A stretch of 32,262 bases of DNA, from UHGV virus genome UHGV-2051569; one strand, given 5' to 3'. Below the pieces are notes generated by a model. That model was not told the origin of the DNA. It saw nothing but the letters and a program-made list of their open reading frames with translations, and did no database searches. The translations under genes were made by a program, and so were the position numbers. Source of the DNA: a virus. Positions 11,585 through 27,940 of the stretch are shown piece by piece (within the stretch, counting starts at the first letter, position 1; each line of letters starts with the position of its first letter).

Positions 11585-11932
11585 TTAACTCAGTGAAACA
11601 GTGGTTGAAACTGACGCACCGGTATCGGTACGCATCCCGGTAATATCGACATACATCTCGCCAGCGTCGCCGGCCTCAAAGCTGATGGATGTATGCCTGA
11701 TGCGCGGTTCCCACTTCTGGATAGCCGAATAGCACGCCACCATAATTTGCAGCCTGAGCGCCGGGTTTTGCGGCATATCAATCAGCGCCGACAGAAGCGA
11801 GCCATATTCACGACGCATCACCCGCGAGCCGACCGGCGTCAGCAGAATATCGCGCATGCTCTGGCTGATATGCTCGGTATCGCTGATGCCAAGGCCGGTA
11901 TTTCGGTTCATCCCCTGATAGCGCGCCGTCAT
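11585..11932 (-). CDS. W: Baseplate protein W (gp25/GPW lysozyme-like fold family)
   Basis: 115-aa ORF following V; P2 gpW-like. Confidence 0.85.
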   Translation of the reverse strand: MTARYQGMNRNTGLGISDTEHISQSMRDILLTPVGSRVMRREYGSLLSALIDMPQNPALRLQIMVACYSAIQKWEPRIRHTSISFEAGDAGEMYVDITGMRTDTGASVSTTVSLS

Positions 11933-12564
11933 AACGGTGCCCCCGTTTGCCCGCCGCTGTCGCCCGGGTGTTTATGGGTGTGGAGTACCTTGCCATTAGA
12001 CGACAGTGACCCGCCGGTATGTTCGATATTGCCGCTCATCTTGCCGCCTTTCTGCACCTCAAGCGTCGCCGTCGTTAGCTTATTGGTGCAAATCACCTCC
12101 GGGGTGTCGAGGGTGATACTGGTCGAGGCTTTCACCAGTACCAGCGGTACAGTTGCGGTGATGGACTCCGATGCCGTCACGTCGGCCGTTTTTATGCCGC
12201 TGACCGTCAGCGCGCCGGTTTCGGGCTCGTACTCAATGACCGCACCATCAGGGAAAGCCACATGCCACGCATCCGCCGAGGCAGACGGGGCGGGGTTATC
12301 GTCGGAGAAAATACCCGGCAGCACGAAAGCGGTATCAAGCTCGCCACCGATTGCCAGCAGCAGAACCTGCTCACCGACCGAGGGAGCCCACCACGTCCGC
12401 GAACGACCGGCGCGGGTGGTCAGCCAGTTCAGCCATGTAGTCTGGATCCCGCCGCTTTGTACGCGGCACAGCCCCTGCACAGTATCGACCTCAGTCACCA
12501 CGCCTGAGCGGATGAGGTTGCGAATGGCACGTGCTAACTCTTGAATGGTGTTTAATGTGTTCAT
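11929..12564 (-). CDS. V: Baseplate spike/assembly protein V (P2 gpV-like)
   Basis: Product MNTLNTIQELARAIRNLIRSGVV... matches P2 gpV N-terminus as recalled; start set at the ATG two codons inside the track ORF. Confidence 0.9.
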   Translation of the reverse strand: MNTLNTIQELARAIRNLIRSGVVTEVDTVQGLCRVQSGGIQTTWLNWLTTRAGRSRTWWAPSVGEQVLLLAIGGELDTAFVLPGIFSDDNPAPSASADAWHVAFPDGAVIEYEPETGALTVSGIKTADVTASESITATVPLVLVKASTSITLDTPEVICTNKLTTATLEVQKGGKMSGNIEHTGGSLSSNGKVLHTHKHPGDSGGQTGAPL

Positions 12565-12701
12565 GAACAAAGAATGCCGATTGTTAAAGCCAAGAGCAAA
12601 ACGATTCAGCTGTATGCTCTTCTACACAATTCGGTGTGCATTCATGTATCATTTGAGTGTTGACTCATTCGAAAATCACACAAAACATATGGCAGGTAGT
12701 A

Positions 12702-13538
12702 ATGAAAAGAACTTCATCTTTTAGGCGTACAATAAGCAATATGAAATATATTATAGGTATCTTTTTTTTATACTCCGGGCTTATAGTAGGGTTGTCTGTT
12801 TATAATGATAACTACAACTCAAAATTCATGGAGAATTTTCTTGTTAATGCAAATTCTTCAATTTTAGATTTTCTTGTTTTGGGTGTGATTCTTTACTATT
12901 TTGAAAATAAAAGGCAAAATAAAGATGCTATTCACGAACTAATTGAAGATCTTGAAAATCTGGCAAAGCATTCTTCTGCAGAACTGAATATTATGAAGAT
13001 AAAAATCATACGTCAGTTAAATGCTAAAGGAATATATAACATTCAAGTTCCAAGGATTGAACTTGATAAAATGTCCACTATCAAATATTTACATTTTAAA
13101 GACGCTGACTTAACCGGCTTGAATATGAGCGAATCATACATTAGAGATTGTTCTTTCGATAATTGCACAATTCAAGCTCTAAATATTACAGGCAATAGAG
13201 TTAAGAGTGTTAAATTCAAAAACTGCAAGCTAAGAAATATTAAGGCATTTAATACATGTTTTCAAAATGTCACTTTCGAAAACTGCAGTTTTGAAGGGGG
13301 GTATTTTACAGATAGCGAAATGAAAAGCTGCATATTAAAAGGATGTGATTTTAAATCCGTTACTTATGAAGGGGCTAACATGCGGAATGCAAATCTATTA
13401 AATTCAATTAACATTAACGTTAAAGAACTTGTTAAAGCAAAAAACATAGATTATTTAATTTGTGATGAGCAAATTAAAAATGAAATAAGAAAGGAAAACC
13501 CAGCAATAAAAATATCGAGAGGAATAATACGAGGTTAG
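12702..13538 (+). CDS. Cargo (moron) gene: membrane-anchored pentapeptide-repeat protein, function unknown
   Basis: AT-rich ORF antisense to the flanking late genes. It has two N-terminal hydrophobic helices (YIIGIFFLYSGLIVGLSVY, ILDFLVLGVILYYF) and about 20 consecutive 5-residue repeats with a hydrophobic fifth position (KDADL TGLNM SESYI RDCSF DNCTI ...). Start chosen at MKRTSS with a weak AGGT RBS. Confidence 0.6.
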   Translation: MKRTSSFRRTISNMKYIIGIFFLYSGLIVGLSVYNDNYNSKFMENFLVNANSSILDFLVLGVILYYFENKRQNKDAIHELIEDLENLAKHSSAELNIMKIKIIRQLNAKGIYNIQVPRIELDKMSTIKYLHFKDADLTGLNMSESYIRDCSFDNCTIQALNITGNRVKSVKFKNCKLRNIKAFNTCFQNVTFENCSFEGGYFTDSEMKSCILKGCDFKSVTYEGANMRNANLLNSININVKELVKAKNIDYLICDEQIKNEIRKENPAIKISRGIIRG

Positions 13539-13628: not shown

Positions 13629-14084
13629 TCAATGGCGTTGACATAAAGCATCCATAATTAAACTCTCAACTTTTTGTAAGTCTGATGAAGAGTATCCGAG
13701 CAACGGTCGCGCCTCGTACTGCACATCCCGGCTGTTGCGGTTTGGCCGGTCTTTTAGGCCGTACTGATGCACCCGCGCCATGCGCTGCACCTTGCCGGTA
13801 AACTCCACCACCGCCGCACTGTCGCTGCCTTTGGCTTTCATAAAGCGACTGGTGCGCAGTTTGGCGAACATTTCACGTTTAATCCGACCTTTCTTGCTCC
13901 GCACCGGCTGGCGCTTTCGTGCCGCATACGGGGTGCCGTCGGGTGCCTGCTGGCGCTTGATACGCTGTTGCTGACTGGTACGCAGCTTTTTCGCAACCTC
14001 AACCGCCATTTGCCGACGTGCCGCCGGTGACAGGCTGGCAATCAGACCGGCAAGGCGTTCCTGCAGCGCGGTTAATTCACTCAT
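13629..14084 (-). CDS. S: Tail completion / virion morphogenesis protein S (P2 gpS-like)
   Basis: 151-aa basic protein in the conserved position after R. Confidence 0.8.
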   Translation of the reverse strand: MSELTALQERLAGLIASLSPAARRQMAVEVAKKLRTSQQQRIKRQQAPDGTPYAARKRQPVRSKKGRIKREMFAKLRTSRFMKAKGSDSAAVVEFTGKVQRMARVHQYGLKDRPNRNSRDVQYEARPLLGYSSSDLQKVESLIMDALCQRH

Positions 14085-18549: not shown

Positions 18550-19404
18550 TCAGCAGTCGGTCAGCAGCTCATCGCCACCACCGCCGCTGGCTTTCGTGCG
18601 TCGCGGCTGGCTGAAACTTTCGGTTTTGTCGAGGGTGGCTTTCAGGGCGGAAAATGCCTGGCTGGTTTCTTCAATCTTGCCGGTCAGTTCCTGTTTAAAG
18701 GTGGTAAGCGCAGCTTCCATAGCGGAAAGACGCTTATCCTGCGCAGTGAGGTTGGTCTGCACATGCTCGCTGACGGTGGTCACCGCTTCATGCACATCAT
18801 TCAGGCGCGCATCGTCGCTGACCTGCTTACGGCTGAAAATGGCTTTCACCTTATCTGCCAGGCTGTTTAGCACCGTATCGGGAACGTCTTCAAATTCCAG
18901 TTCGGCCAGCGTGGCAGCGGAAAAGACGTTTTCAGGGTTGGCCTTAAAGCGCTGCAGAGGGTTGTGCTTCGCGTTGCGGCAGAATTCGAGGTATTCAGTG
19001 CCGAGGCTCGCCGGGTCATCGGTGACAGCAAGGCCGACGAGGTAGCATTTGCCGGTATTGGCAAAATTCGGCTGAATTTCCATTGAGGTGTAGACCTTCT
19101 GCAATTTTTTATTCATCGCAATCAGGTCGTCGGTTGGGGTGATTCTGGCGAACAACGCCCATTTGCCGTTAAGCGCAGAATCGTCGTCAATTATTTCAGC
19201 TTTCAGTTCAACCACATCGCCTAAGCGTTTGAAGTCGCCATCAGGAAAGAGACCGCGAATATGCTCAAGGTTAATGCGGCAACCGTAGACGCGAGGGTCA
19301 AACGATTCGGCCATTTCCTGAATATCGTTGCCGCTGATAATGCGGCCGTCGCAGGTGTCACCCTCGACGCCGATGCGAAAGAATTTTGAGACTTTTTTTG
19401 CCAT
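18550..19404 (-). CDS. O: Capsid scaffolding protein O
   Basis: 284-aa ORF at the head of the O-N-M-L operon, divergent from P. Confidence 0.9.
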   Translation of the reverse strand: MAKKVSKFFRIGVEGDTCDGRIISGNDIQEMAESFDPRVYGCRINLEHIRGLFPDGDFKRLGDVVELKAEIIDDDSALNGKWALFARITPTDDLIAMNKKLQKVYTSMEIQPNFANTGKCYLVGLAVTDDPASLGTEYLEFCRNAKHNPLQRFKANPENVFSAATLAELEFEDVPDTVLNSLADKVKAIFSRKQVSDDARLNDVHEAVTTVSEHVQTNLTAQDKRLSAMEAALTTFKQELTGKIEETSQAFSALKATLDKTESFSQPRRTKASGGGGDELLTDC

Positions 19405-19569: not shown

Positions 19570-21339
19570 ATGACCAATTCCACCGATACAACCTTGTTGC
19601 ATGACCCGCGACGGCAGGCATCGCTGCTTTACTGGCAGGGTTTTTCCGTGCCACAGATTGCCGAAATGCTGCAGGTCAAGCGCCCGACCGTGCAGAGCTG
19701 GAAGCAGCGCGACGGCTGGGACGGCATCGCGCCGATTTCCCGCGTTGAAAGCAGCCTTGAGGCTAGGCTGATTCAGCTCATCGCCAAGCCGCAAAAGACA
19801 GGGGGTGATTTCAAAGAGATTGACCTACTCGGACGGCAGATTGAACGGTTGGCGCGAGTCAACCGCTACAGCCAGACCGGCAACGAAGCCGACCTTAACC
19901 CCAACGTCGCCAACCGCAACAAAGGGGAGCGCAAAAAGCCGAAAAAGAATTTTTTCAGCGACGAGGCTATCGATAAACTAGAGGAATTATTTTTCGACCA
20001 GTCTTTCGAGTACCAGTTGCAGTGGTACCGCGCAGGACTGGAGCACCGTATTCGTGACATTCTCAAATCCCGCCAGATTGGCGCGACATTCTATTTCTCC
20101 CGCGAGGCACTGCTGCGCGCACTCAAAACCGGCCATAACCAGATATTTTTATCAGCCAGTAAAACGCAGGCTTACGTGTTCCGCGAATACATCATCCAGT
20201 TTGCGCGACTGGTCGACGTTGACCTGACTGGCGACCCGATTGTCATCGGTAACAACGGCGCAAAACTGATTTTTCTCGGTACCAATTCCAACACCGCGCA
20301 GAGCCATAACGGCGATCTGTATGTCGATGAAATATTCTGGATCCCGAATTTTCAGAAACTGCGCAAAGTCGCCTCGGGCATGGCCTCGCAAAAGCACCTG
20401 CGCTCGACCTATTTTTCGACACCTTCCACGCTGGCGCACGGCGCTTACCCCTTCTGGTCTGGCGAGCTGTTCAACAAGGGGCGCAGCCGGATTGCCGACC
20501 GCATCGAAATCGACATCAGTCACAGCGCGCTTGCCGGTGGCCAGCTCTGCGACGATGGCCAGTGGCGGCAGATTGTCACCATTGAGGACGCCCTTGCGGG
20601 TGGCTGCACCCTGTTCGACCTCGACCAGCTCAAACGCGAAAACAGTGATGAGGACTTTAAGAACCTGTTTATGTGCGAGTTTGTCGACGATAAAGCGTCG
20701 GTATTCCCGTTCGAGGAGCTGCAGCGCTGCATGGTCGATGTGATGGAGGAATGGGAGGACTTTGCCCCGTTCGCCGACCATCCGTTCGGCTCTCGTCCTG
20801 TCTGGATTGGCTACGACCCGTCACACACCGGCGACAGTGCCGGGTGCGTCGTGCTCGCGCCGCCGGTGGTCTCTGGTGGCAAGTTCCGCATGCTGGAGCG
20901 CCACCAGTGGAAGGGCATGGATTTTGCAGCACAGGCAGAGGGCATCCGCAAGCTGACCGAGAAATACAACGTCGAATACATCGGCATTGACGCAACCGGC
21001 CTCGGTCTCGGCGTGTTCCAGCTGGTGCGCTCATTTTACCCGGCGGCACGCGGCATCCGTTACACACCTGAAATGAAAACCGCAATGGTACTCAAGGCGA
21101 AAGACACCATTCGCCGTGGCTGTCTGGAGTACGACGCCGGAGCAACCGACGTCACGCAGTCGTTTATGTCCATCCGCAAAACCATGACCAGCAGCGGGCG
21201 CAGCGCCACCTATGAGGCCAGCCGCACCGAGGAAGCCAGCCACGCCGATATCGCATGGGCGACCATGCACGCCCTGTTAAACGAACCGCTTTCTGCCGGT
21301 AGCGGCATGCAGCCTAAATCTATTCTGGAGTTCAACTAA
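19570..21339 (+). CDS. P: Terminase large (ATPase) subunit P
   Basis: 589-aa ORF, divergent from O, directly upstream of the portal gene. Confidence 0.95.
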   Translation: MTNSTDTTLLHDPRRQASLLYWQGFSVPQIAEMLQVKRPTVQSWKQRDGWDGIAPISRVESSLEARLIQLIAKPQKTGGDFKEIDLLGRQIERLARVNRYSQTGNEADLNPNVANRNKGERKKPKKNFFSDEAIDKLEELFFDQSFEYQLQWYRAGLEHRIRDILKSRQIGATFYFSREALLRALKTGHNQIFLSASKTQAYVFREYIIQFARLVDVDLTGDPIVIGNNGAKLIFLGTNSNTAQSHNGDLYVDEIFWIPNFQKLRKVASGMASQKHLRSTYFSTPSTLAHGAYPFWSGELFNKGRSRIADRIEIDISHSALAGGQLCDDGQWRQIVTIEDALAGGCTLFDLDQLKRENSDEDFKNLFMCEFVDDKASVFPFEELQRCMVDVMEEWEDFAPFADHPFGSRPVWIGYDPSHTGDSAGCVVLAPPVVSGGKFRMLERHQWKGMDFAAQAEGIRKLTEKYNVEYIGIDATGLGLGVFQLVRSFYPAARGIRYTPEMKTAMVLKAKDTIRRGCLEYDAGATDVTQSFMSIRKTMTSSGRSATYEASRTEEASHADIAWATMHALLNEPLSAGSGMQPKSILEFN

Positions 21340-21340
21340 A

Positions 21341-22387
21341 ATGGGTAAACAAAAATCCCGTAAAGCCAACGCACAAAAGGCCAGCAAACCACAACAACTG
21401 ACCGCCAGCACACCGCCAAAAACGACAGCGTTCACCTTCGGCGAGCCGGTGCCGGTACTCGATAAGCGCGACATTCTGGATTACGTCGAGTGCATCAGTA
21501 ACGGCAAATGGTACGAGCCGCCGGTCAGCTTCTCAGGGCTGGCAAAGAGCCTGCGCTCTGCCGTGCATCACAGCTCGCCAATTTATGTTAAGCGTAACGT
21601 GCTCGCGAGCACCTACATTCCGCACCCGTTGTTATCCCGTCAGGATTTCAGCCGCTTTGCGCTCGATTATCTGGTGTTCGGTAACGCCTTTCTTGAGCAG
21701 CGCCACAGCGTCACCGGCCAGTTAATCAAACTGCTGGCCTCGCCAGCCAAATACACCCGACGCGGAGTCGACGATTCGATTTTCTGGTTTGTGGAAAACT
21801 TCACCCAGCCGCACGAGTTCGCGCCTGATACCGTGTTTCACCTGCTGGAGCCCGACATTAATCAGGAGATTTACGGCCTGCCCGAATATCTCAGCGCGCT
21901 AAATTCCGCCTGGCTGAATGAATCCGCGACGCTGTTCCGCCGCAAGTATTATCAGAACGGCGCGCACGCGGGTTACATCATGTATGTGACTGACCCGGCG
22001 CAGAGCGCGACCGACGTCGAATCGCTGCGCGAGGCGATGCGCAACTCAAAAGGGCTCGGCAACTTTAAGAACCTGTTTTTCTACGCTCCCGGCGGAAAAC
22101 CGGACGGCATCAAAATCGTGCCACTGAGCGAGGTCGCCACAAAGGATGACTTTTTCAACATCAAGAAGGCCAGTGCCGCCGATCTGATGGACGCGCACCG
22201 CGTACCGTTCCAGCTCATGGGCGGCAAGCCCGAGAATATCGGTTCACTCGGTGATGTTGAGAAGGTGGCAAAGGTATTTGTGCGCAACGAGCTGTCGCCG
22301 CTACAGGACAGGTTCAGGGAGGTAAATGACTGGCTCGGCATGGAGGTCATCAGATTCAAAGAGTACACCCTCGACAACCCAGAATAA
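21341..22387 (+). CDS. Q: Portal protein Q
   Basis: 348-aa ORF translationally coupled to P and transcribed towards cos, as in P2. Confidence 0.95.
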   Translation: MGKQKSRKANAQKASKPQQLTASTPPKTTAFTFGEPVPVLDKRDILDYVECISNGKWYEPPVSFSGLAKSLRSAVHHSSPIYVKRNVLASTYIPHPLLSRQDFSRFALDYLVFGNAFLEQRHSVTGQLIKLLASPAKYTRRGVDDSIFWFVENFTQPHEFAPDTVFHLLEPDINQEIYGLPEYLSALNSAWLNESATLFRRKYYQNGAHAGYIMYVTDPAQSATDVESLREAMRNSKGLGNFKNLFFYAPGGKPDGIKIVPLSEVATKDDFFNIKKASAADLMDAHRVPFQLMGGKPENIGSLGDVEKVAKVFVRNELSPLQDRFREVNDWLGMEVIRFKEYTLDNPE

Positions 22388-22417
22388 CTTAGGCCGCCAC
22401 AATCTCTGCGCTCATTA

Positions 22418-22446
22418 TTGAAGATGCAATCTGCGAAAGCTATAGT
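22418..22446 (+). promoter_or_regulatory. Candidate sigma70 promoter for the post-portal cargo gene
   Basis: TTGAAG, 17-bp spacer, TATAGT, ending about 18 bp before the ATG at 22465. Confidence 0.4.
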
Positions 22447-22464
22447 GCATCGAATATCAAAACA

Positions 22465-23469
22465 ATGGGCGCGGAGATTAATATTTTGGAAACTGATTTT
22501 AAAATAACCCTCGAAGGTTTCGCTACTGAGCAAGAAGCAAATAATATCGGTAATTTCACACTAGAAGCTATCCGAGCTTTAACAAAAAATCTCAATCTTG
22601 ATATCTCCAAATTAAAATGCGTGATTGTTTCCTATAACTTCAGTGAAGCTCTTCAAAAGGTAACATCCTCTTACCAACACAAATCCCCTAGTTCATTTAC
22701 CAATAGCAAACAGGGCGCAGCCGTCGGGCAGTTAGTAACAAAAATTGGCAATGATGGGCTATGTGAAGAATATACCCTTGTGCTATCGATTGATTTTTTT
22801 GTTGAGCTTTTCAATGATGGTAGCTTCTTAAAACTGAAAGAAGAAGGATACCTCGCAGTCATCCATCGCATTCACCATGAATTAGTGCACGTACATGAAA
22901 AAAACTTACTAACATGCTTAGCCCAAAACTTTACAGTCAACGAGTATGGTAGCGCGCTTCTTATCTCAGCCACGCGTGCGTGGTCTGAATATCTCGCTAA
23001 TTACATGTCTTCGGGGTCTGCCCCTCAAGAAACTATCGATTTATTTTTAGAGAATCTTGACACTGTTGTAAATGAAGTATCTGACGAGATTGAAAAACTC
23101 ATCTGGGGTTATAAGTACGGTAATATTTCTCTGAATGACATGTATCTCGAAGTAAAAAAACGTATCAGGCTAATCATCAACTCTTATGCTTATGCGATGG
23201 GTTATGTCCATTCTCTAAACATCAATATTAAAGAATACGATCCAAAGCTATCCCTTACACTATCCAACTCAAAGATAAGATATCAATTATCAGAATTAGG
23301 CATTGCTTTTCAGAATCTTTATGGGAAGTTTAATGACCAGCACATTACAGGTTTTGGTGATTTTCGGGAGATAACAATAATCATTGATGAAATATTCAAG
23401 CAGTTTGGGCTTGTTTTAGAGTGTCCCGATTGGTCTGGCGACGGTGAACTCTACATACATGTAAATTAG
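22465..23469 (+). CDS. Cargo gene between portal and cos: hypothetical protein with an HExxH motif (possible metallopeptidase-like)
   Basis: 334-aa AT-rich ORF containing ...AVIHRIHHELVHVHEKN...; no obvious RBS; located between the Q stop and the cos-like site. Confidence 0.55.
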   Translation: MGAEINILETDFKITLEGFATEQEANNIGNFTLEAIRALTKNLNLDISKLKCVIVSYNFSEALQKVTSSYQHKSPSSFTNSKQGAAVGQLVTKIGNDGLCEEYTLVLSIDFFVELFNDGSFLKLKEEGYLAVIHRIHHELVHVHEKNLLTCLAQNFTVNEYGSALLISATRAWSEYLANYMSSGSAPQETIDLFLENLDTVVNEVSDEIEKLIWGYKYGNISLNDMYLEVKKRIRLIINSYAYAMGYVHSLNINIKEYDPKLSLTLSNSKIRYQLSELGIAFQNLYGKFNDQHITGFGDFREITIIIDEIFKQFGLVLECPDWSGDGELYIHVN

Positions 23470-23688
23470 TTTAATCATAGTAGAAACATAATTAGCAGTT
23501 TGAATCCTGCCACTCCTGTAAAGCCGCTGCTCCTGGTGGCTTTTCCATGCACACCACCATCACGCATCAGATGCGTCTCACGCGCACGAACACACCCGAC
23601 CACCAACGAACCAGCAGCGACCACGACAGCGCCATCACGACGCGCTCAGAGGATAATTTTTATTATTACGCATCACTGCTGGCGCGCA

Positions 23689-23707
23689 ATGCTTTCCCCG
23701 CCACGCC
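23689..23707 (-). other. cos cohesive-end site
   Basis: Minus strand reads GGCGTGGCGGGGAAAGCAT, matching the 19-nt cohesive end of P2/186-type phages as recalled; GC-rich flanks with repeated GTGATG/GGTGG motifs. Confidence 0.7.
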
Positions 23708-23852: not shown

Positions 23853-24569
23853 TTATCGAACCCTTTTTTCCAGATTGAGTAGGGCTTTTTTGCATTTTTT
23901 TTGATTAATAAACGTTCTATCCAGTATCTTTATATGAAACATCATTACTCTATTGAAGCAAATAAACATTTCTCGGGCATCCTGGCCAACAATCAGAAAC
24001 GACTCGCCATTAATATTTGGAATGTTGCTATTCTTCGATAAATCATCAAATGCCTCAGAGCCACGTTCATTTCTATACATTTCTTTAATAGCCATTACTT
24101 CATCGTGGCGAACGATATTAATCCAAATTAATTTATCTACAGTCAACAATTGCCCATACTCTAAGAAAAATACTCCCTTGGCTAACCAGGTGCCGTATTG
24201 GTAAATCTCCCTACCATTTAGGGGTAATGTTATCTGCGCACCTTTTTTTGTATGCCTAACACTCTGGAATGCTTCACGAAATTTCGAGTCTTTTCTTTTA
24301 AGCGCATTATGGAATTTATTAACAGCATCAAAGCTGCCTGTTGAGTGCTCTCCTACCATGCGGCAAATGACACCTAACACCTCGTCAATTCGGCTTTTAT
24401 CGCCATTGCACTTTTTGCATACATAGAAATCACCTTCGCCGTTGGTTCTATGAATGGAGACTGAAACTTGCGGAATCATGTGTTCAACTGAGCGGCAGTG
24501 GGGGTGATTTTCAACCTTATTCATGAGAACACCGCAATAAACGCAGTGTGTGCTTGGTTTCATATACAT
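23853..24569 (-). CDS. Cargo gene: HNH (His-Me finger) nuclease-domain protein with an uncharacterised C-terminal domain
   Basis: N-terminal CVYCG ... VEHMIPQ ... N ... CKKCNGDKS fits the Cys4 plus catalytic His/Asn HNH pattern; AT-rich; start uncertain (24644, 24569 or 24563; a weak AAGGG RBS precedes the inner ATGs). Confidence 0.6.
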   Translation of the reverse strand: MYMKPSTHCVYCGVLMNKVENHPHCRSVEHMIPQVSVSIHRTNGEGDFYVCKKCNGDKSRIDEVLGVICRMVGEHSTGSFDAVNKFHNALKRKDSKFREAFQSVRHTKKGAQITLPLNGREIYQYGTWLAKGVFFLEYGQLLTVDKLIWINIVRHDEVMAIKEMYRNERGSEAFDDLSKNSNIPNINGESFLIVGQDAREMFICFNRVMMFHIKILDRTFINQKKCKKALLNLEKRVR

Positions 24570-24665
24570 TGCCCTTACAATGTCTAATGACGAATGAGTA
24601 GCACTAAAATAACACAAATCTGATGGTGGGATGTCAGCCCCCATGCTTTAGATTGGACATACGAA

Positions 24666-25113: not shown

Positions 25114-25185
25114 AACTAACGCCTCTCGGAGCCAGTTTCAACCCCGCCAGCACTGAAAGCAAGATTCAGCACCGACGGCGTTTGT
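25114..25185. repeat. ~70-bp imperfect direct repeat, copy B
   Basis: actaacgcctctcggagccagtttcaaccccgccagcactgaaagcaagattcagcaccgacggcgtttg lies immediately 3' of the DinI-like gene stop. Confidence 0.55.
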
Positions 25186-25418
25186 TAATGCAGCCAGCTA
25201 TCGTCCTCCCATACCTGCTGCATGATTTCCATTACTCGTTTTTTATCTTCGTCCAGTTTCAAACCGCTTAACTCAACGCCATTAGCTGAGCCCTTACGAA
25301 TGCGGATAGCAGTCTTTGGGTAAATAGGTTGAAGATTGCGGTACAGCTCAGCCTCAAGTGCATCCAACGTTGCCTGACTAATTTTTTGCTCTTTATCCAA
25401 CGTGATATTGATTCTCAT
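25185..25418 (-). CDS. DinI-like protein (Tum-like antirepressor domain)
   Basis: 77-aa MRINITLDKEQKISQATLDALEAELYRNLQ...EDKKRVMEIMQQVWEDDSWLH aligns along its length with E. coli DinI as recalled; sits downstream of the LexA box. Confidence 0.8.
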   Translation of the reverse strand: MRINITLDKEQKISQATLDALEAELYRNLQPIYPKTAIRIRKGSANGVELSGLKLDEDKKRVMEIMQQVWEDDSWLH

Positions 25419-25421
25419 AAT

Positions 25422-25604
25422 CTAATCAGCCTTATAAAAATTATCATCTTCGGTTTCGTTATTTTCGCTGTTTGCTAGGTCTGCAATGAGAGTGAGCGCG
25501 AGCTTTAAGTCTGATGGCTTGCAGTTTGCAATCAGAGATACCTCGGCAATAAATTGCACACAAGCCCACTTTTGCTGCGTTCGGCTGAAATGTTCGCCAA
25601 CCAT
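25422..25604 (-). CDS. Small acidic protein, first gene after the LexA box; possibly the N-terminal part of an interrupted tum-like gene
   Basis: 60-aa ORF with a GGGAGGG RBS; it ends in TAG, followed by ATT and then the in-frame ATG of the DinI-like ORF. Confidence 0.5.
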   Translation of the reverse strand: MVGEHFSRTQQKWACVQFIAEVSLIANCKPSDLKLALTLIADLANSENNETEDDNFYKAD

Positions 25605-25717: not shown

Positions 25718-27940
25718 TTACTCATGTATTGGTTTTGATGCTTCAGCCATCGCCGCAACACGATTAAGGATTTTCCGAGCTTTAGCCTCATGCGATGGTG
25801 CTGCGGAAAATATTTCTCCTTTGGCCGTTCCGCGTAGCCATTTACCATCAAAACAACTTTTACCACCGGCCATCAGGTGCAGGGCTTCGCCCCGGCTGAT
25901 ATTAATGCCGGTTGTCAGATGTATTTCGTCGATAGTTTTAGCTATAGCTGCGTTTTGCTCATCCGTTCCGTGGATGAATTTTCGCCGTGCTGCTGGCTTT
26001 TGCTTCCTGAGTCGGTTGGTCAATTCTCGTCTTTCACGCCGACTCAGTGGTTTTGTTAAATCCAGTATCGGTGGATCGCTTTCGCTTCCCGTACAGTTAT
26101 TGACAGAACTCCGAGGGACGGCTTTGCCGTCCTGAAGGTCAACGGCCAAATCAACAGCACGCTTCGGAACAATCTTCCACTGAGTGAGCCGGGTTAAAAT
26201 CGGGCTTCCTGCACCTATGGAGGAATCGTAGACCCCCTTAATACATACCGTTTCCTCACCGTACTGATTAAGCTCGGTACGCGGTTCATACAGTGTGCGC
26301 ACCTGTAAATCGTCGCGACGGACAAACGGCCCACCCTGAGCATTAACATAACCAGCCCAGTCACCAGCGTCGGCGGCATCATGGACGGCGGCAAACTCAA
26401 CGCTCAGACCGTGCGCGGTTTCGGTATCAGCGAGGCGACGCAACTCACGGTAAACCGTCACCGGCGCACCACCAATAAACTGAAACTGACGGATGTGCCA
26501 GCGCGCAGCCCATGCTGAAACGGCGGGGGCTGTCTCTTTCAGCAGCTCACCGCTTTCATCATCGGTTTCACCATCGAGAGCATAACCGTCGATATTTTTT
26601 GAAATGTATTTAGCAACATAGCCGGTTGCGCTGCCTTTCTCCGGGTCAATGGACTCGGCGTGGAAACGTGCTTTTTTGGATTTATCGCTTTTCAGTTCGT
26701 GGCGGTCTTCTTTCCATGCGTATTTACGGACGATGGAGCGAACATATTCAACATATTCCGGCAGCATGAACATCAGCATGTGCCAGTGTGGAGTGCCGTC
26801 GTGATGGGGCTCGGCGACACGAATACCGAAAATACGGACATCTTCCCGATGTAGTTTGGCACGGATACGCGCCCAGATACCGGTTAGATAGTTTTGCGTG
26901 TCAGCCGGGCTGGCACCGCTCCATTTGCTGTTACGGTAACCGGCTTTAGTCGTGGCGTGATATTTTGACGGCGCGGTTAGAGTGTAAAACTCACCGACAT
27001 AACCGAGCTCATTACAGATGTTTTCAAACCCACGAATGCGGGTCATGAGCTCACAGCGGCGAATCGCAGGGTTAGCAACTGAGCCATCATATTTTTCAAT
27101 TAGGCTGATACGGTTGCCGTCTTCGTCTTCGAGATCCAGACCTTTGAGAAATTCACGAGTGCGGCGCTTTTGTTCACGCCAGTCAGTCACGCAGTTTTTA
27201 CTCGCGTAAGTGTTTTTTTTCTTACTGACGTTGCCGACTGCAATTTGCAGGTGTTCGCGCCACGTAGCTGCAACACGGCGCAAACGACCGCGCCACCACC
27301 CATCGTTAAACATTTTGGCGATAGCCGGTGCGATTTCATCCGCACCGACATATTTTTTTTCAACCCGCTCCCAATGTGGTGGGATAACGTTGAATTGGAG
27401 GGAAATAAAGCCAGCACGAATATACCAGGTGTACAGCGTTTTAAGCTCGCCGAATCCGTGGTCATTAATGTTGGCAAGTTCACCACGAATGAAATTAGCA
27501 ATATCAGCGGCCAACAGGTCAACATCAGCGCGCGACATGTCCGGGAGACGGTTATATTGGGCGACCATATTAACCATGCGTGACGACAGATATTGCATTT
27601 GCTGAGTATCAAAATGACTTCCAAAAACAGCGGTTGATACCTTGCTGTTGATACCAGCGCATTCGTATTTTTTTGCGACCAGTTCAAGACGCGGCAATGC
27701 CTTTTTGCAGAAGCTGATTAAAAATGCATTGGCTCGTTGACTACCCTGATTTTGCTCCAGCACCGCAGCAGTGCGATAAACATCTAACCGTACGCAGTCG
27801 GGCTGGAGAGAAAGCACCTTTTTTGCATGCAGCAAAGCCGCGAACATACGGTCGCGACGATGCTGTTGCTCATAAGTAAGGTATGGGCTGGGGATTGCCG
27901 ACCGTGGGACGTTCCACGGATAAGCGAATTGAACAGCCAA
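25718..27940 (-). CDS. A: Replication initiation protein A (rolling-circle nickase, P2 gpA-like)
   Basis: 740-aa ORF with the HxH metal-binding motif (HDGTPHWHMLMF) and catalytic Tyr region (GYVAKYISK) typical of P2 A-type initiators. Confidence 0.9.
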   Translation of the reverse strand: MAVQFAYPWNVPRSAIPSPYLTYEQQHRRDRMFAALLHAKKVLSLQPDCVRLDVYRTAAVLEQNQGSQRANAFLISFCKKALPRLELVAKKYECAGINSKVSTAVFGSHFDTQQMQYLSSRMVNMVAQYNRLPDMSRADVDLLAADIANFIRGELANINDHGFGELKTLYTWYIRAGFISLQFNVIPPHWERVEKKYVGADEIAPAIAKMFNDGWWRGRLRRVAATWREHLQIAVGNVSKKKNTYASKNCVTDWREQKRRTREFLKGLDLEDEDGNRISLIEKYDGSVANPAIRRCELMTRIRGFENICNELGYVGEFYTLTAPSKYHATTKAGYRNSKWSGASPADTQNYLTGIWARIRAKLHREDVRIFGIRVAEPHHDGTPHWHMLMFMLPEYVEYVRSIVRKYAWKEDRHELKSDKSKKARFHAESIDPEKGSATGYVAKYISKNIDGYALDGETDDESGELLKETAPAVSAWAARWHIRQFQFIGGAPVTVYRELRRLADTETAHGLSVEFAAVHDAADAGDWAGYVNAQGGPFVRRDDLQVRTLYEPRTELNQYGEETVCIKGVYDSSIGAGSPILTRLTQWKIVPKRAVDLAVDLQDGKAVPRSSVNNCTGSESDPPILDLTKPLSRRERRELTNRLRKQKPAARRKFIHGTDEQNAAIAKTIDEIHLTTGINISRGEALHLMAGGKSCFDGKWLRGTAKGEIFSAAPSHEAKARKILNRVAAMAEASKPIHE

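What the first reader, a model, noticed from the sequence alone, without database searches (positions are those of the whole stretch)
22388..23707. A cargo gene inserted between the portal gene and cos, encoding a 334-aa HExxH-motif protein
In P2 (as recalled) the portal gene Q ends within a couple of hundred bp of the left cohesive end. Here about 1.3 kb separates the Q stop (22387) from the cos-like site (~23689-23707). That gap is filled by an AT-rich 334-aa ORF with its own sigma70-like promoter (TTGAAG-17-TATAGT) and no obvious RBS. The protein carries a candidate zinc-binding HExxH motif (IHRIHHELVHVHE) and otherwise looks novel to me. It would sit at the extreme genome terminus in virion DNA and next to the old/tin-type hotspot in the prophage, which makes it a candidate lysogen-expressed defence or anti-defence effector.
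Basis: partly seen in the sequence, partly recalled or inferred. Interest (0 to 1): 0.72.

Follow-up and report, generated by a model that had tools for sequence, protein, structure and literature searches.

The report
Uncharacterised zinc-protease cargo beside prophage cos
A 186/P2-like prophage carries, between its portal gene and its DNA-packaging site, an acquired gene for a new family of predicted zinc proteases; this slot is part of a known anti-phage defence hotspot, so the gene is a good but untested candidate for a one-gene defence system.

Summary
Compared with phage 186, 1146 bp of low-GC DNA (22388-23533, 38% GC against 56% for the portal) sits between the portal stop codon and the portal terminator tW. 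The 174-bp cos flank and the 19-nt cos (23689-23707) are intact. The insert holds one gene, 22465-23469 (334 aa; more likely 327 aa from TTG 22486, which has a GGAG Shine-Dalgarno). It is under purifying selection (dN/dS about 0.2).

The gene always occurs alone. It is found in prophages, mobile elements and defence islands. In other P2-like phages the same portal-cos slot holds DRT2 and other defence systems.

Rousset et al. 2022 already list this exact protein as unannotated, untested P2-hotspot system #76. My best reading is a prophage-encoded cytoplasmic zinc protease that acts in phage exclusion, much as Lit does. That function is inferred, not shown.

The parts
21341..22387 (+). Portal gene (P2 Q / 186 W homolog). 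Its stop codon is the left boundary of the insertion.
   Evidence: Pfam Phage_portal E 5e-13. The last 187 nt are 95% identical to 186 W, and homology stops at the TAA.
22388..23533 (+). Acquired low-GC cassette (1146 bp) that replaces about 20 bp of phage 186 between the portal stop and terminator tW.
   Evidence: blastn against 186. GC 0.38 against 0.56 for the portal. The same cassette is present in 26 of 5426 complete E. coli genomes and in one phage record.
22418..22446 (+). Sigma-70-like promoter candidate, TTGAAG-17-TATAGT.
   Evidence: Found by the scan, 9 of 12 matches. The number of such sites in the region is not above shuffled controls. Both hexamers are unchanged in a cassette variant with 89.7% DNA identity, but that upstream alignment is 98% identical overall. 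Function not shown.
22473..22488 (+). GGAG Shine-Dalgarno (22473-22476) and in-frame TTG start (22486-22488). This is the probable true start and gives 327 aa.
   Evidence: Read directly from the sequence. Most homologs start here as 'ME(T/P)D(F/L)'. PGAP calls this start in E. coli 222. GGAG, a 9-nt spacer and TTG are also present in the 56%-identical ortholog L032. Residues 1-7 of the ATG form have pLDDT below 50.
22465..23469 (+). Cargo gene: predicted cytoplasmic gluzincin-type zinc metallopeptidase of an undescribed family (334 aa from the ATG).
22876..22890 (+). HExxH codons: H138, E139, L, V, H142. Predicted to supply two zinc ligands and the catalytic base.
   Evidence: Invariant in A1 (32 sequences) and A2 (78 sequences, down to 17% identity). 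Lies on predicted helix 126-148.
22981..22998 (+). W173-S-E175-Y-L-A178 motif. E175 is the predicted third zinc ligand (HExxH-x32-E).
   Evidence: E175 is invariant; W173 and A178 are at least 90% conserved across 78 distant members. Lies on the next long helix, 160-185.
23520..23548 (+). Terminator tW of the terminase-portal late operon, now downstream of the cargo gene.
   Evidence: Terminator-like hairpin at 23526-23540 followed by a T run. Aligns with the annotated tW of 186. No + strand terminator-like site between the portal stop and the cargo start.
23534..23707 (.). Conserved cos-flanking region plus the 19-nt cohesive-end site (23689-23707).
   Evidence: 86% identical to 186 over 176 nt; the 19-nt cos is identical. 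Conserved in all cassette-bearing loci.
23853..24644 (-). Independent cargo on the gpA side of cos: a 263-aa HNH/PtuB-like protein. Not part of the zincin cassette.
   Evidence: Weak PtuB hits, E 7e-5. PHROG 31193, 'unknown function'. Absent from all 18 cassette-bearing P2-like loci tested; those loci have different content on the gpA side.

Best explanation
The region is a one-gene moron inserted into the cos-proximal gpQ-gpA variability hotspot of a 186/P2-like prophage, on the portal side of cos. The insertion point is immediately after the portal stop codon and before terminator tW, so the packaging signal is untouched.

The gene encodes a soluble cytoplasmic zinc metallopeptidase of about 327 aa. 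It belongs to a previously undescribed gluzincin family. H138 and H142 on the active-site helix and E175 on the following helix are predicted to bind zinc, and E139 is the predicted catalytic base.

The most likely role is stand-alone phage exclusion for the lysogen, working like the e14 prophage protease Lit. In that model a latent or specific protease cleaves a phage protein or an essential host protein on superinfection and blocks the invader's growth. The gene would be expressed from its own weak promoter in the lysogen. It would also be read through from the late terminase-portal transcript.

Shown here: the insertion, the conservation, purifying selection, solitary occurrence, and the hotspot and defence-island context. 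Strongly inferred: zinc peptidase chemistry. Inferred by association only: the defence role, the substrate and the expression pattern.
For: **Insertion and intact cos.**

**Hotspot.**
- Rousset 2022 (PMC9122126) defines the region between gpQ and gpA, next to cos, as a defence hotspot. Its Table S5B lists this exact protein as system #76, with 51 loci.
- In a sample of 93 IMG/VR P2/186-like contigs, 14 have an expanded portal-cos interval. Their cargo includes DRT2 (E 5e-205), RT_UG36 (3e-172), an HEC-02/PD-T4-4-like ATPase and PDC-S02.

**Mobility of the gene.**
- Orthologs of 51-56% identity sit just downstream of the portal in P2-like phages whose portals are only 32-34% identical.
- The gpA-side cargo varies independently of this gene.

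**Enzyme prediction.**
- The only invariant columns in 78 sequences are H138, E139, H142 and E175.
- AF2 pLDDT is 90.8.

**Solitary gene in conflict contexts.**
- No neighbour is conserved across 15 loci.
- Neighbours include a Pycsar-type TIR effector, STAND/NB-ARC NTPases, HEPN proteins, reverse transcriptases, type I R-M, CTD6/MC2, prophage genes and mobilisation genes.

**Fusion.** The family domain is fused to DUF2971, an ART-like domain that constitutes the validated Abi system Aristaios.

Against: - No experiment exists. The sequence is absent from Rousset's table of tested systems.
- No PADLOC model matches any of 78 family members beyond chance.
- Similarity to Lit is confined to the HHE(L/I)xHV motif (hhalign probability 15%).
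- The promoter is not above chance.
- The gene is co-oriented with the late operon, and no terminator-like site lies between them. The other portal-side cargoes sampled are mostly on the opposite strand. This would also fit a role in the phage's own lytic cycle.
- Some distant homologs lie in unremarkable contexts, for example PutA and a PP-loop ATPase in L016.
Confidence: 0.45

Rival explanations
1. Counter-defence or anti-satellite protease used in the phage's own lytic cycle. The gene would be co-transcribed with the late terminase-portal operon. Its product would degrade a host defence protein or a P4-type satellite factor, or prime the next host, rather than protect the lysogen.
For: - Same strand as P and Q, with no terminator-like site between the portal stop and the cargo; tW follows the cargo.
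- Orthologs in divergent P2-like phages keep the same orientation downstream of the portal.
- The other portal-side cargoes sampled (DRT2 excepted) are on the opposite strand.
- A metalloprotease-domain anti-restriction protein, ArdC, is a precedent (PMC7213743).
Against: - Late expression is too late to counter defences that act on entering DNA.
- Most family members are chromosomal, in defence islands or mobilisable elements, not in phages.
- The cassette's upstream region is unchanged in variants, although overall divergence there is low.
Confidence: 0.17
2. A protease with a regulatory or physiological role unrelated to phage conflict. Examples would be ImmA/IrrE-like cleavage of a repressor or antitoxin, or a stress-response or lysogenic-conversion function.
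For: - Prophage-borne HExxH proteases with regulatory roles exist, for example ImmA/IrrE and the LfgB-type cases found.
- Weak structural resemblance to minimal zincins (IrrE-like, WLM, SprT) in BFVD.
- Some homologs lie in neutral contexts.
Against: - No HTH or repressor partner, or any other neighbour, is conserved.
- No Pfam Peptidase_M78 hit.
- The position in a defence hotspot and in defence islands is unexplained by this reading.
Confidence: 0.15
3. A zincin-fold metal hydrolase that is not a peptidase, for example a nuclease like YbeY or another hydrolase. Alternatively, a catalytically silent scaffold or sensor.
For: - One DUF2971 fusion (P0141) has lost the first His and the Glu, so the fold can persist without the metal site.
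Against: - HExxH plus E is invariant in 78 diverse members. This is the peptidase gluzincin signature, not the YbeY HxxxHxxxxxH motif.
Confidence: 0.1
4. A conserved virion or packaging component of this phage lineage: a head-processing protease or a cos-binding accessory.
For: It is adjacent to the portal, the terminase and cos.
Against: - Absent from 186, P2-type references and 79 of 93 sampled P2/186-like contigs.
- Low GC, so foreign in origin.
- Present in only 26 of 5426 complete E. coli genomes.
- Homologs occur outside phages.
Confidence: 0.02

Closest known systems
P2-like phage gpQ-gpA (cos-proximal, old/tin) defence hotspot: Rousset et al. 2022, Cell Host Microbe (PMC9122126); 2026 NAR follow-up (PMC13586616)
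   Same: The location is the same: between the portal and replication gene A, next to cos. The cargo is low-GC and variable, and it is exchanged among related phages. This exact protein is listed there as system #76, with 51 occurrences.
   Different: P2's own old and tin lie on the gpA side of cos. Here the cargo is on the portal side, between the portal stop and tW. In my sample only about 15% of P2/186-like contigs use that sub-site. The published table gives no domain, and the sequence is absent from the table of tested systems.
Lit protease of the e14 prophage (MEROPS U49; Pfam PF10463). From established knowledge, it cleaves EF-Tu when triggered by the T4 Gol peptide.
   Same: It is a prophage-encoded, solitary, cytoplasmic protein of about 300 aa. 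It has an HHExxH motif in the middle of the protein ('ILHHEISHV' against 'RIHHELVHV'). It serves as the working model for the mechanism.
   Different: No detectable homology beyond the motif (hhalign probability 15%, 18 columns). No PF10463 or PADLOC hit. No sequence downstream of the HExxH motif aligns between the two proteins.
Gluzincin (clan MA(E)) peptidases: M1 aminopeptidase catalytic domain, M4 thermolysin, M9 collagenase, M30 lugdulysin
   Different: Sequence identity is only 9-13%, and no profile match exists to any Pfam peptidase family. The H-to-E spacing is 32 residues. The protein has no MEN tripeptide, so no GxMEN motif. It is a single 330-aa domain with an extra C-terminal helical bundle.
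ImmA/IrrE (COG2856, Peptidase_M78) mobile-element proteases
   Same: Mobile-element-borne, cytoplasmic HExxH zinc proteases. An IrrE-like protein appears among the weak BFVD structural matches.
   Different: No M78 profile hit, and no adjacent HTH repressor substrate. The gene is solitary in all 15 contexts compared.
Aristaios (DUF2971, ART-like single-gene Abi; Grafakou et al. 2024, PMC11381338)
   Same: In two cluster representatives (P0141, P0202) the family domain is fused to the C-terminus of a DUF2971 domain. This links the family to an Abi-type effector.
   Different: The window protein has no DUF2971 domain. Only 2 of the best 150 family representatives listed by the search (355 matched at E <= 0.001) carry the fusion, and one of the two has a degenerate metal site.

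Membership tests
Gluzincin zinc metallopeptidases (clan MA(E)) | HExxH motif on the active-site helix | tested here: met
   H138, E139 and H142 are invariant in 32 close and 78 distant homologs. They lie on predicted helix 126-148.
Gluzincin zinc metallopeptidases (clan MA(E)) | Third zinc ligand is a Glu on the helix C-terminal to HExxH | tested here: met
   E175 is invariant across 78 sequences, inside the conserved WSEYxA motif on helix 160-185.
Gluzincin zinc metallopeptidases (clan MA(E)) | Thermolysin-like two-subdomain fold | tested here: inconclusive
Gluzincin zinc metallopeptidases (clan MA(E)) | Zinc binding and peptide-bond hydrolysis | not testable with these tools
   Needs purified protein.
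M1 aminopeptidases | Match to the Peptidase_M1 profile; GxMEN exopeptidase motif; HExxH-x18-E spacing; multidomain architecture | tested here: not met
   No Pfam hit, even at E <= 1. The protein has no MEN tripeptide (translation). The spacing is x32. It is a single domain of about 330 aa. It shares the fold class only.
Lit (Peptidase U49) | Sequence or profile homology to Lit / PF10463 | tested here: not met
   hhalign of the family profile against E. coli K-12 Lit gives probability 15% over 18 columns around the motif. No Pfam or PADLOC hit.
Lit (Peptidase U49) | Phage-peptide-triggered cleavage of EF-Tu causing abortive infection | not testable with these tools
   Requires infection assays and a search for the substrate.
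ImmA/IrrE (Peptidase_M78) | M78 profile match and an adjacent HTH repressor partner | tested here: not met
   No PF06114 hit in any of 78 members. No neighbour is conserved across 15 loci.
P2-like gpQ-gpA defence-hotspot cargo | Located between portal gpQ and replication gene gpA, adjacent to cos, with content that varies among related phages | tested here: met
   Portal at 21341-22387, cargo, cos at 23689-23707, gpA at 25718-27940. The slot is empty in 186 and in 79 of 93 contigs, and filled with other systems in 13. Listed in Rousset Table S5B as #76.
P2-like gpQ-gpA defence-hotspot cargo | Confers resistance to phage infection | not testable with these tools
   The sequence is absent from Rousset's Table S2 of tested systems. 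No paper in the library mentions its accessions.
Known or candidate defence systems in PADLOC-DB v2 | Match to a PADLOC model | tested here: not met
   No hit for the window protein. Only scattered single-member hits at E > 1e-4 among 78 family members.

The most novel reading that the evidence does not exclude
The gene founds a new peptidase family that works as a self-contained sensor-effector protease in phage conflicts. Unlike the old/tin-type cargo on the other side of cos, it is wired into the late terminase-portal transcript. It could therefore act during the phage's own lytic cycle, for example against P4-type satellites or host defences, as well as in the lysogen. That would be a dual-use protease at the extreme left end of virion DNA.
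Probability: 0.12. Interest if true: 0.75.

Novelty: new member of a known kind. Interest (0 to 1): 0.45.

Why it matters
If the protein is an anti-phage protease, it would add a second, unrelated family to the Lit type of one-protein proteolytic abortive-infection system. The family is widespread, with at least 355 clusters at 50% identity across Gamma- and Alphaproteobacteria and beyond. It has no Pfam model, no solved structure and no defence-database entry.

The work also gives a domain assignment and catalytic residues to an unannotated entry in the published P2-hotspot catalogue (#76). The portal side of cos turns out to be a recurrent cargo sub-site that also holds DRT2 and other systems. 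The insertion point there preserves both tW and the packaging signal.

The candidate is cheap to test: one gene and four obvious point mutants.

Tried and rejected
**Profile and sequence searches with no usable match**
- Pfam, NCBIfam and PADLOC scans of the protein gave nothing. PHROGs gave only 'unknown function' families.
- Pfam and PADLOC scans of 78 family members gave only chance-level single hits. Peptidase_Mx1 matched 2 members at E 0.0025.
- PDB sequence searches with both family profiles found only coiled-coil noise.

**Structure searches**
- Foldseek against the PDB found nothing significant.
- The afdb50 library was not available.

**Specific hypotheses tested and rejected**
- Lit homology was tested by profile comparison and rejected.
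- A two-gene system spanning cos, with the 263-aa HNH-like gene, was rejected. That gene is absent from all other P2-like loci tested that carry the cassette, and three different gpA-side contents accompany the cassette.
- A conserved partner gene elsewhere was rejected by all-against-all comparison of neighbours in 15 loci.
- A virion or packaging role was rejected on distribution.
- A type III secretion effector such as GogA/GtgA was considered. It was set aside because homologs occur in Shewanella, Psychromonas and Colwellia, in marine metagenome contigs and in Bradyrhizobium, within defence-island contexts.

**Other dead ends**
- The search for related loci with the broad alignment failed for lack of conserved stretches.
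- A literature search by accession found nothing.
Full report
**1. What is in the sequence**

The window is a 186/P2-like (Peduoviridae) prophage. Around the finding the gene order is:
- capsid scaffold O (18550-19404, -)
- terminase P (19570-21339, +)
- portal Q/W (21341-22387, +; Pfam Phage_portal)
- the ORF in question (22465-23469, +, 334 aa)
- the cos site
- a 263-aa ORF (23853-24644, -)
- small ORFs including a DinI-family gene
- replication gene A (25718-27940, -)

Alignment with phage 186 (U32222) shows 95% identity up to and including the portal stop codon at 22387. There is then no similarity until 23534. After that comes 86% identity over 176 nt, ending in a 19-nt cos (23689-23707) identical to that of 186. 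So 1146 bp replace about 20 bp of 186.

The insertion point is between the portal stop and the annotated portal terminator tW. The terminator is retained downstream of the cargo, as a hairpin at 23526-23540 followed by a T run.

The insert is 38% GC against 56% for the portal.

**2. A real gene, and where it starts**

Against five cassette variants that are 88-95% identical at the protein level, dN/dS is 0.19-0.30 and there are no stop codons.

The ATG at 22465 has no Shine-Dalgarno. An in-frame TTG at 22486 lies 9 nt downstream of GGAG (22473-22476). Several facts favour the TTG:
- Most homologs begin at that position as 'ME(T/P)D(F/L)' and are 323-329 aa long.
- PGAP uses that start in E. 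coli strain 222.
- GGAG followed by a 9-nt spacer and TTG recurs in a 56%-identical ortholog.
- Residues 1-7 of the ATG form are disordered in the model.

I take 327 aa as the more likely product.

However, it matches 9 of 12 positions, and the region has no more such sites than shuffled sequence (6 against 6.5 ± 2.8). Its hexamers are unchanged in the cassette variant with 89.7% DNA identity, but that upstream alignment is 98% identical overall, so this says little.

No terminator-like site separates the portal from the cargo on the + strand. Read-through from the late P-Q transcript is therefore expected. This is an inference.

**3. What the protein is**

There is no hit in Pfam, NCBIfam or PADLOC. 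In PHROGs it is phrog_11743, 'unknown function'.

A word-indexed search found 78 homologs, all named 'hypothetical' and none with a Pfam domain. They come from Escherichia, Salmonella, Citrobacter, Klebsiella, Serratia, Pectobacterium, Yersinia, Kosakonia, Shewanella and Psychromonas. An exhaustive profile search found 355 cluster representatives at 50% identity with E <= 0.001. Nearly all are 300-340 aa. Further members occur in Bradyrhizobium, Paracoccus and Hyphomicrobium.

In the close set, the motifs HHELxHxHE and WSEYxAN are invariant or nearly so. In 78 members down to 17% identity, the only invariant columns are H138, E139, H142 and E175. W173, A178, G246 and G315 are at least 90% conserved. 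HExxH with a Glu on the following helix is the defining signature of gluzincins.

AlphaFold2 with the 32-sequence alignment gives mean pLDDT 90.8 and pTM 0.90. The model has:
- an N-terminal beta-sheet subdomain
- helix 126-148, which carries HExxH
- helix 160-185, which carries E175
- a C-terminal helical bundle

About 160-186 residues align at 9-13% identity. Foldseek finds nothing significant in the PDB. Its best BFVD hit is a viral 'Peptidase' (E 3.6e-3, probability 1.00), followed by weak WLM, IrrE-like and SprT-like matches. PDB sequence searches with both profiles found nothing relevant.

**Conclusion on the protein.** It is a divergent, undescribed gluzincin-type family. It is not a member of M1: there is no profile hit, no MEN tripeptide, an H-to-E spacing of 32 rather than 18, and a single domain. 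It is not Lit, since hhalign gives 15% probability over the motif only. It is not ImmA/IrrE, since there is no M78 hit and no repressor partner.

Rousset's table records no signal peptide or transmembrane segment for it. The N-terminus has no hydrophobic stretch.

**4. Context: the same slot in other phages**

This exact protein occurs on 829 contigs. The cassette is in 26 of 5426 complete E. coli genomes, always chromosomal and always annotated hypothetical. It is in one GenBank phage record, vB_EcoM-613R3.

In twelve IMG/VR 186-like contigs and four genomic loci the order portal, cargo, cos is kept. The cos-to-gpA interval varies in length, and none of these loci contains the window's 263-aa gene. 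Strain 222 and phage 613R3 have a 313-aa protein on the gpA side. Strain PKF8 has only small ORFs there. The zincin cassette is therefore independent of the gpA-side cargo.

Orthologs of 56% and 51% identity (L032, L034) lie just downstream of the portal in P2-like phages whose portal and terminase are only 32-40% identical to the window's. In L032 an ogr/delta gene lies between the portal and the cargo. The cargo is thus more conserved than the backbone. That points to exchange of the cassette between P2-like lineages at the same site.

To see how unusual the portal side is, I fetched 120 IMG/VR stretches containing the P2/186 cos core. Of these, 93 had a portal upstream:
- In 79 the portal-stop-to-cos distance is 100-199 bp.
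- In 14 it is expanded, by 0.3 to 3.2 kb, and one of these is this cassette.

The other large expansions carry different low-GC cargo:
- DRT2 (PADLOC E 5e-205)
- RT_UG36 (E 3e-172)
- an HEC-02/PD-T4-4-like ATPase with a partner
- PDC-S02
- several proteins with no match

So the portal side of cos is a minority sub-site, but a genuine one, that holds validated defence systems. The sample is the first 120 scan hits, not a random draw.

**5. Context: outside P2-like phages**

All-against-all comparison of neighbours in 15 loci found no conserved partner. The contexts are:
- Shewanella: next to NERD and CSD/Excalibur genes.
- Psychromonas: type I R-M HsdR, DUF4357, VspR and a ResIII helicase.
- Kosakonia: a YafO toxin and phage tail genes.
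- Vibrio: a STAND-like AAA ATPase and a permuted GreAB-C protein.
- Colwellia: a CAP12/Pycsar-type TIR effector protein.
- Gilliamella: inside a prophage, between a BRO/P22 antirepressor and tail genes.
- A metagenome bin: an NB-ARC/TPR STAND protein, HEPN_Swt1 and a resolvase.
- Tara Oceans contigs: CTD6/MC2, PRTase-CE, RVT_1 with AAA_21, and HEPN/MNT.
- Paracoccus: MobC/NikA, an HTH protein, a 923-aa AAA_21/SMC_N protein and a transposase.
- A few neutral contexts, such as PutA with a PP-loop ATPase and a Bradyrhizobium island of small ORFs.

Two cluster representatives fuse a full-length family domain to the C-terminus of DUF2971. DUF2971 is an ART-like domain (PMC12522546) and is the only recognised domain of the single-gene lactococcal Abi system Aristaios (PMC11381338). 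One fusion keeps HExxH and E; the other has lost both.

**6. What is already known**

Rousset et al. 2022 (PMC9122126) define the region between gpQ and gpA, adjacent to cos, as a defence hotspot of P2-like phages. Their Table S5B lists this exact 334-aa sequence as system #76. It has 51 occurrences, an empty Pfam field, a single protein and no notes. The sequence does not occur in their Table S2 of tested systems.

The 2026 follow-up (PMC13586616) restates the GpA-GpQ hotspot and mentions no protease. No paper in the library mentions the protein's accessions.

The hotspot and the existence of the gene are therefore known. New here are the domain assignment, the catalytic residues, the family's extent, the solitary defence-island distribution and the exact insertion anatomy.

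**7. Mechanism and likelihoods**

- **Best model, about 0.45.** A solitary cytoplasmic zinc protease that protects the lysogen by proteolysis triggered by, or directed at, a superinfecting phage. It works like Lit without being a relative of Lit.
  - The base rate for unknown hotspot cargo being defensive is high. More than a third of cloned systems gave protection in PMC9122126, and 6 of 8 random unknown P4 loci did in PMC13586616.
  - The steps from 'zincin' to 'defence', and to any substrate, are inference.
- **Rival, about 0.17.** A counter-defence or anti-satellite protease expressed with the late operon. Co-orientation and the lack of an intervening terminator favour it. The mainly non-phage distribution of the family counts against it.
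- **Rival, about 0.15.** A regulatory or physiological protease unrelated to phage conflict.
- **Rival, about 0.10.** A non-peptidase or catalytically silent zincin fold.
- **Rival, about 0.02.** A virion or packaging role. This is effectively refuted by the gene's distribution.

**8. Verdict**

- There is a Shine-Dalgarno for a TTG start.
- The promoter is unproven.
- The gene is already catalogued, though uncharacterised.

It is a new, sizeable member of a known kind: cargo of the P2 cos-proximal defence hotspot, and a member of the zincin superfamily. It is a cheap and well-defined experimental target. Interest is moderate.

Noticed in passing
window 23853-24644 (-): The cargo on the gpA side of cos (the old/tin position) is a solitary 263-aa protein with a CxxC...H...CxxC HNH-like N-terminus. 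It has weak PADLOC PtuB hits (best E 7e-5) and no PtuA partner. It is PHROG 31193, 'unknown function'. It was not found in the stored part of Rousset's tables, and it is absent from every other P2-like locus tested that carries the zincin cassette.
   Followed up: partly
window 12657-13538 (+): A second low-GC moron (30-34% GC) lies between the tail-module ORFs 11929-12570 and 13629-14084 (gpV/gpS by position, from memory of the P2 map; not tested). This is the orf30-type slot of P2. It encodes a 293-aa protein with a hydrophobic N-terminal segment and pentapeptide repeats (Pfam Pentapeptide_4, E 2e-16).
   Followed up: partly
IMG/VR loci L055, L065, L071, L072, L079, L115, L128, L158 (portal-to-cos intervals): The portal-cos slot of other P2/186-like phages holds diverse low-GC cargo, mostly on the strand opposite the portal. 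It includes DRT2, RT_UG36, an HEC-02/PD-T4-4-like ATPase pair and PDC-S02. Several large proteins (541 aa, 465 aa, 362 aa) have no PADLOC match, and a 343-aa protein has only a weak PDC-S33 hit.
   Followed up: partly
IMG/VR loci L052, L053, L082, L084 (portal-to-cos intervals of about 470-490 bp): A recurrent small expansion of the portal-cos interval. In the two loci whose ORFs were listed (L052, L053) it encodes a 74-75-aa lysine-rich protein (MDNYHITKDGDKWK...) on the strand opposite the portal. Function unknown.
   Followed up: no
proteins P0141 and P0202 (metagenomic cluster representatives): These are fusions of an N-terminal DUF2971 (ART-like, Aristaios-type) domain with a full-length copy of the zincin family domain. 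P0202 keeps HHELAH...E. P0141 has HRELGH and Ala in place of the Glu, so its metal site is probably dead.
   Followed up: partly
L032 5639-5965 (+): In a distant P2-like phage (portal 32% identical) an Ogr/Delta zinc-finger late-activator gene lies between the portal and the zincin ortholog. gpA follows about 130 bp after the cargo, and no 186-type cos core is present.
   Followed up: partly
window 25185-25604 (-): A DinI-family gene (Pfam E 7e-24) and an adjacent 60-aa ORF lie between the hotspot cargo and gpA. In phage vB_EcoM-613R3 the ORFs at the equivalent positions are annotated 'DNA-damage-inducible protein I' and 'UV induction of prophage'. This would be the 186-type SOS-induction module.
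   Followed up: no
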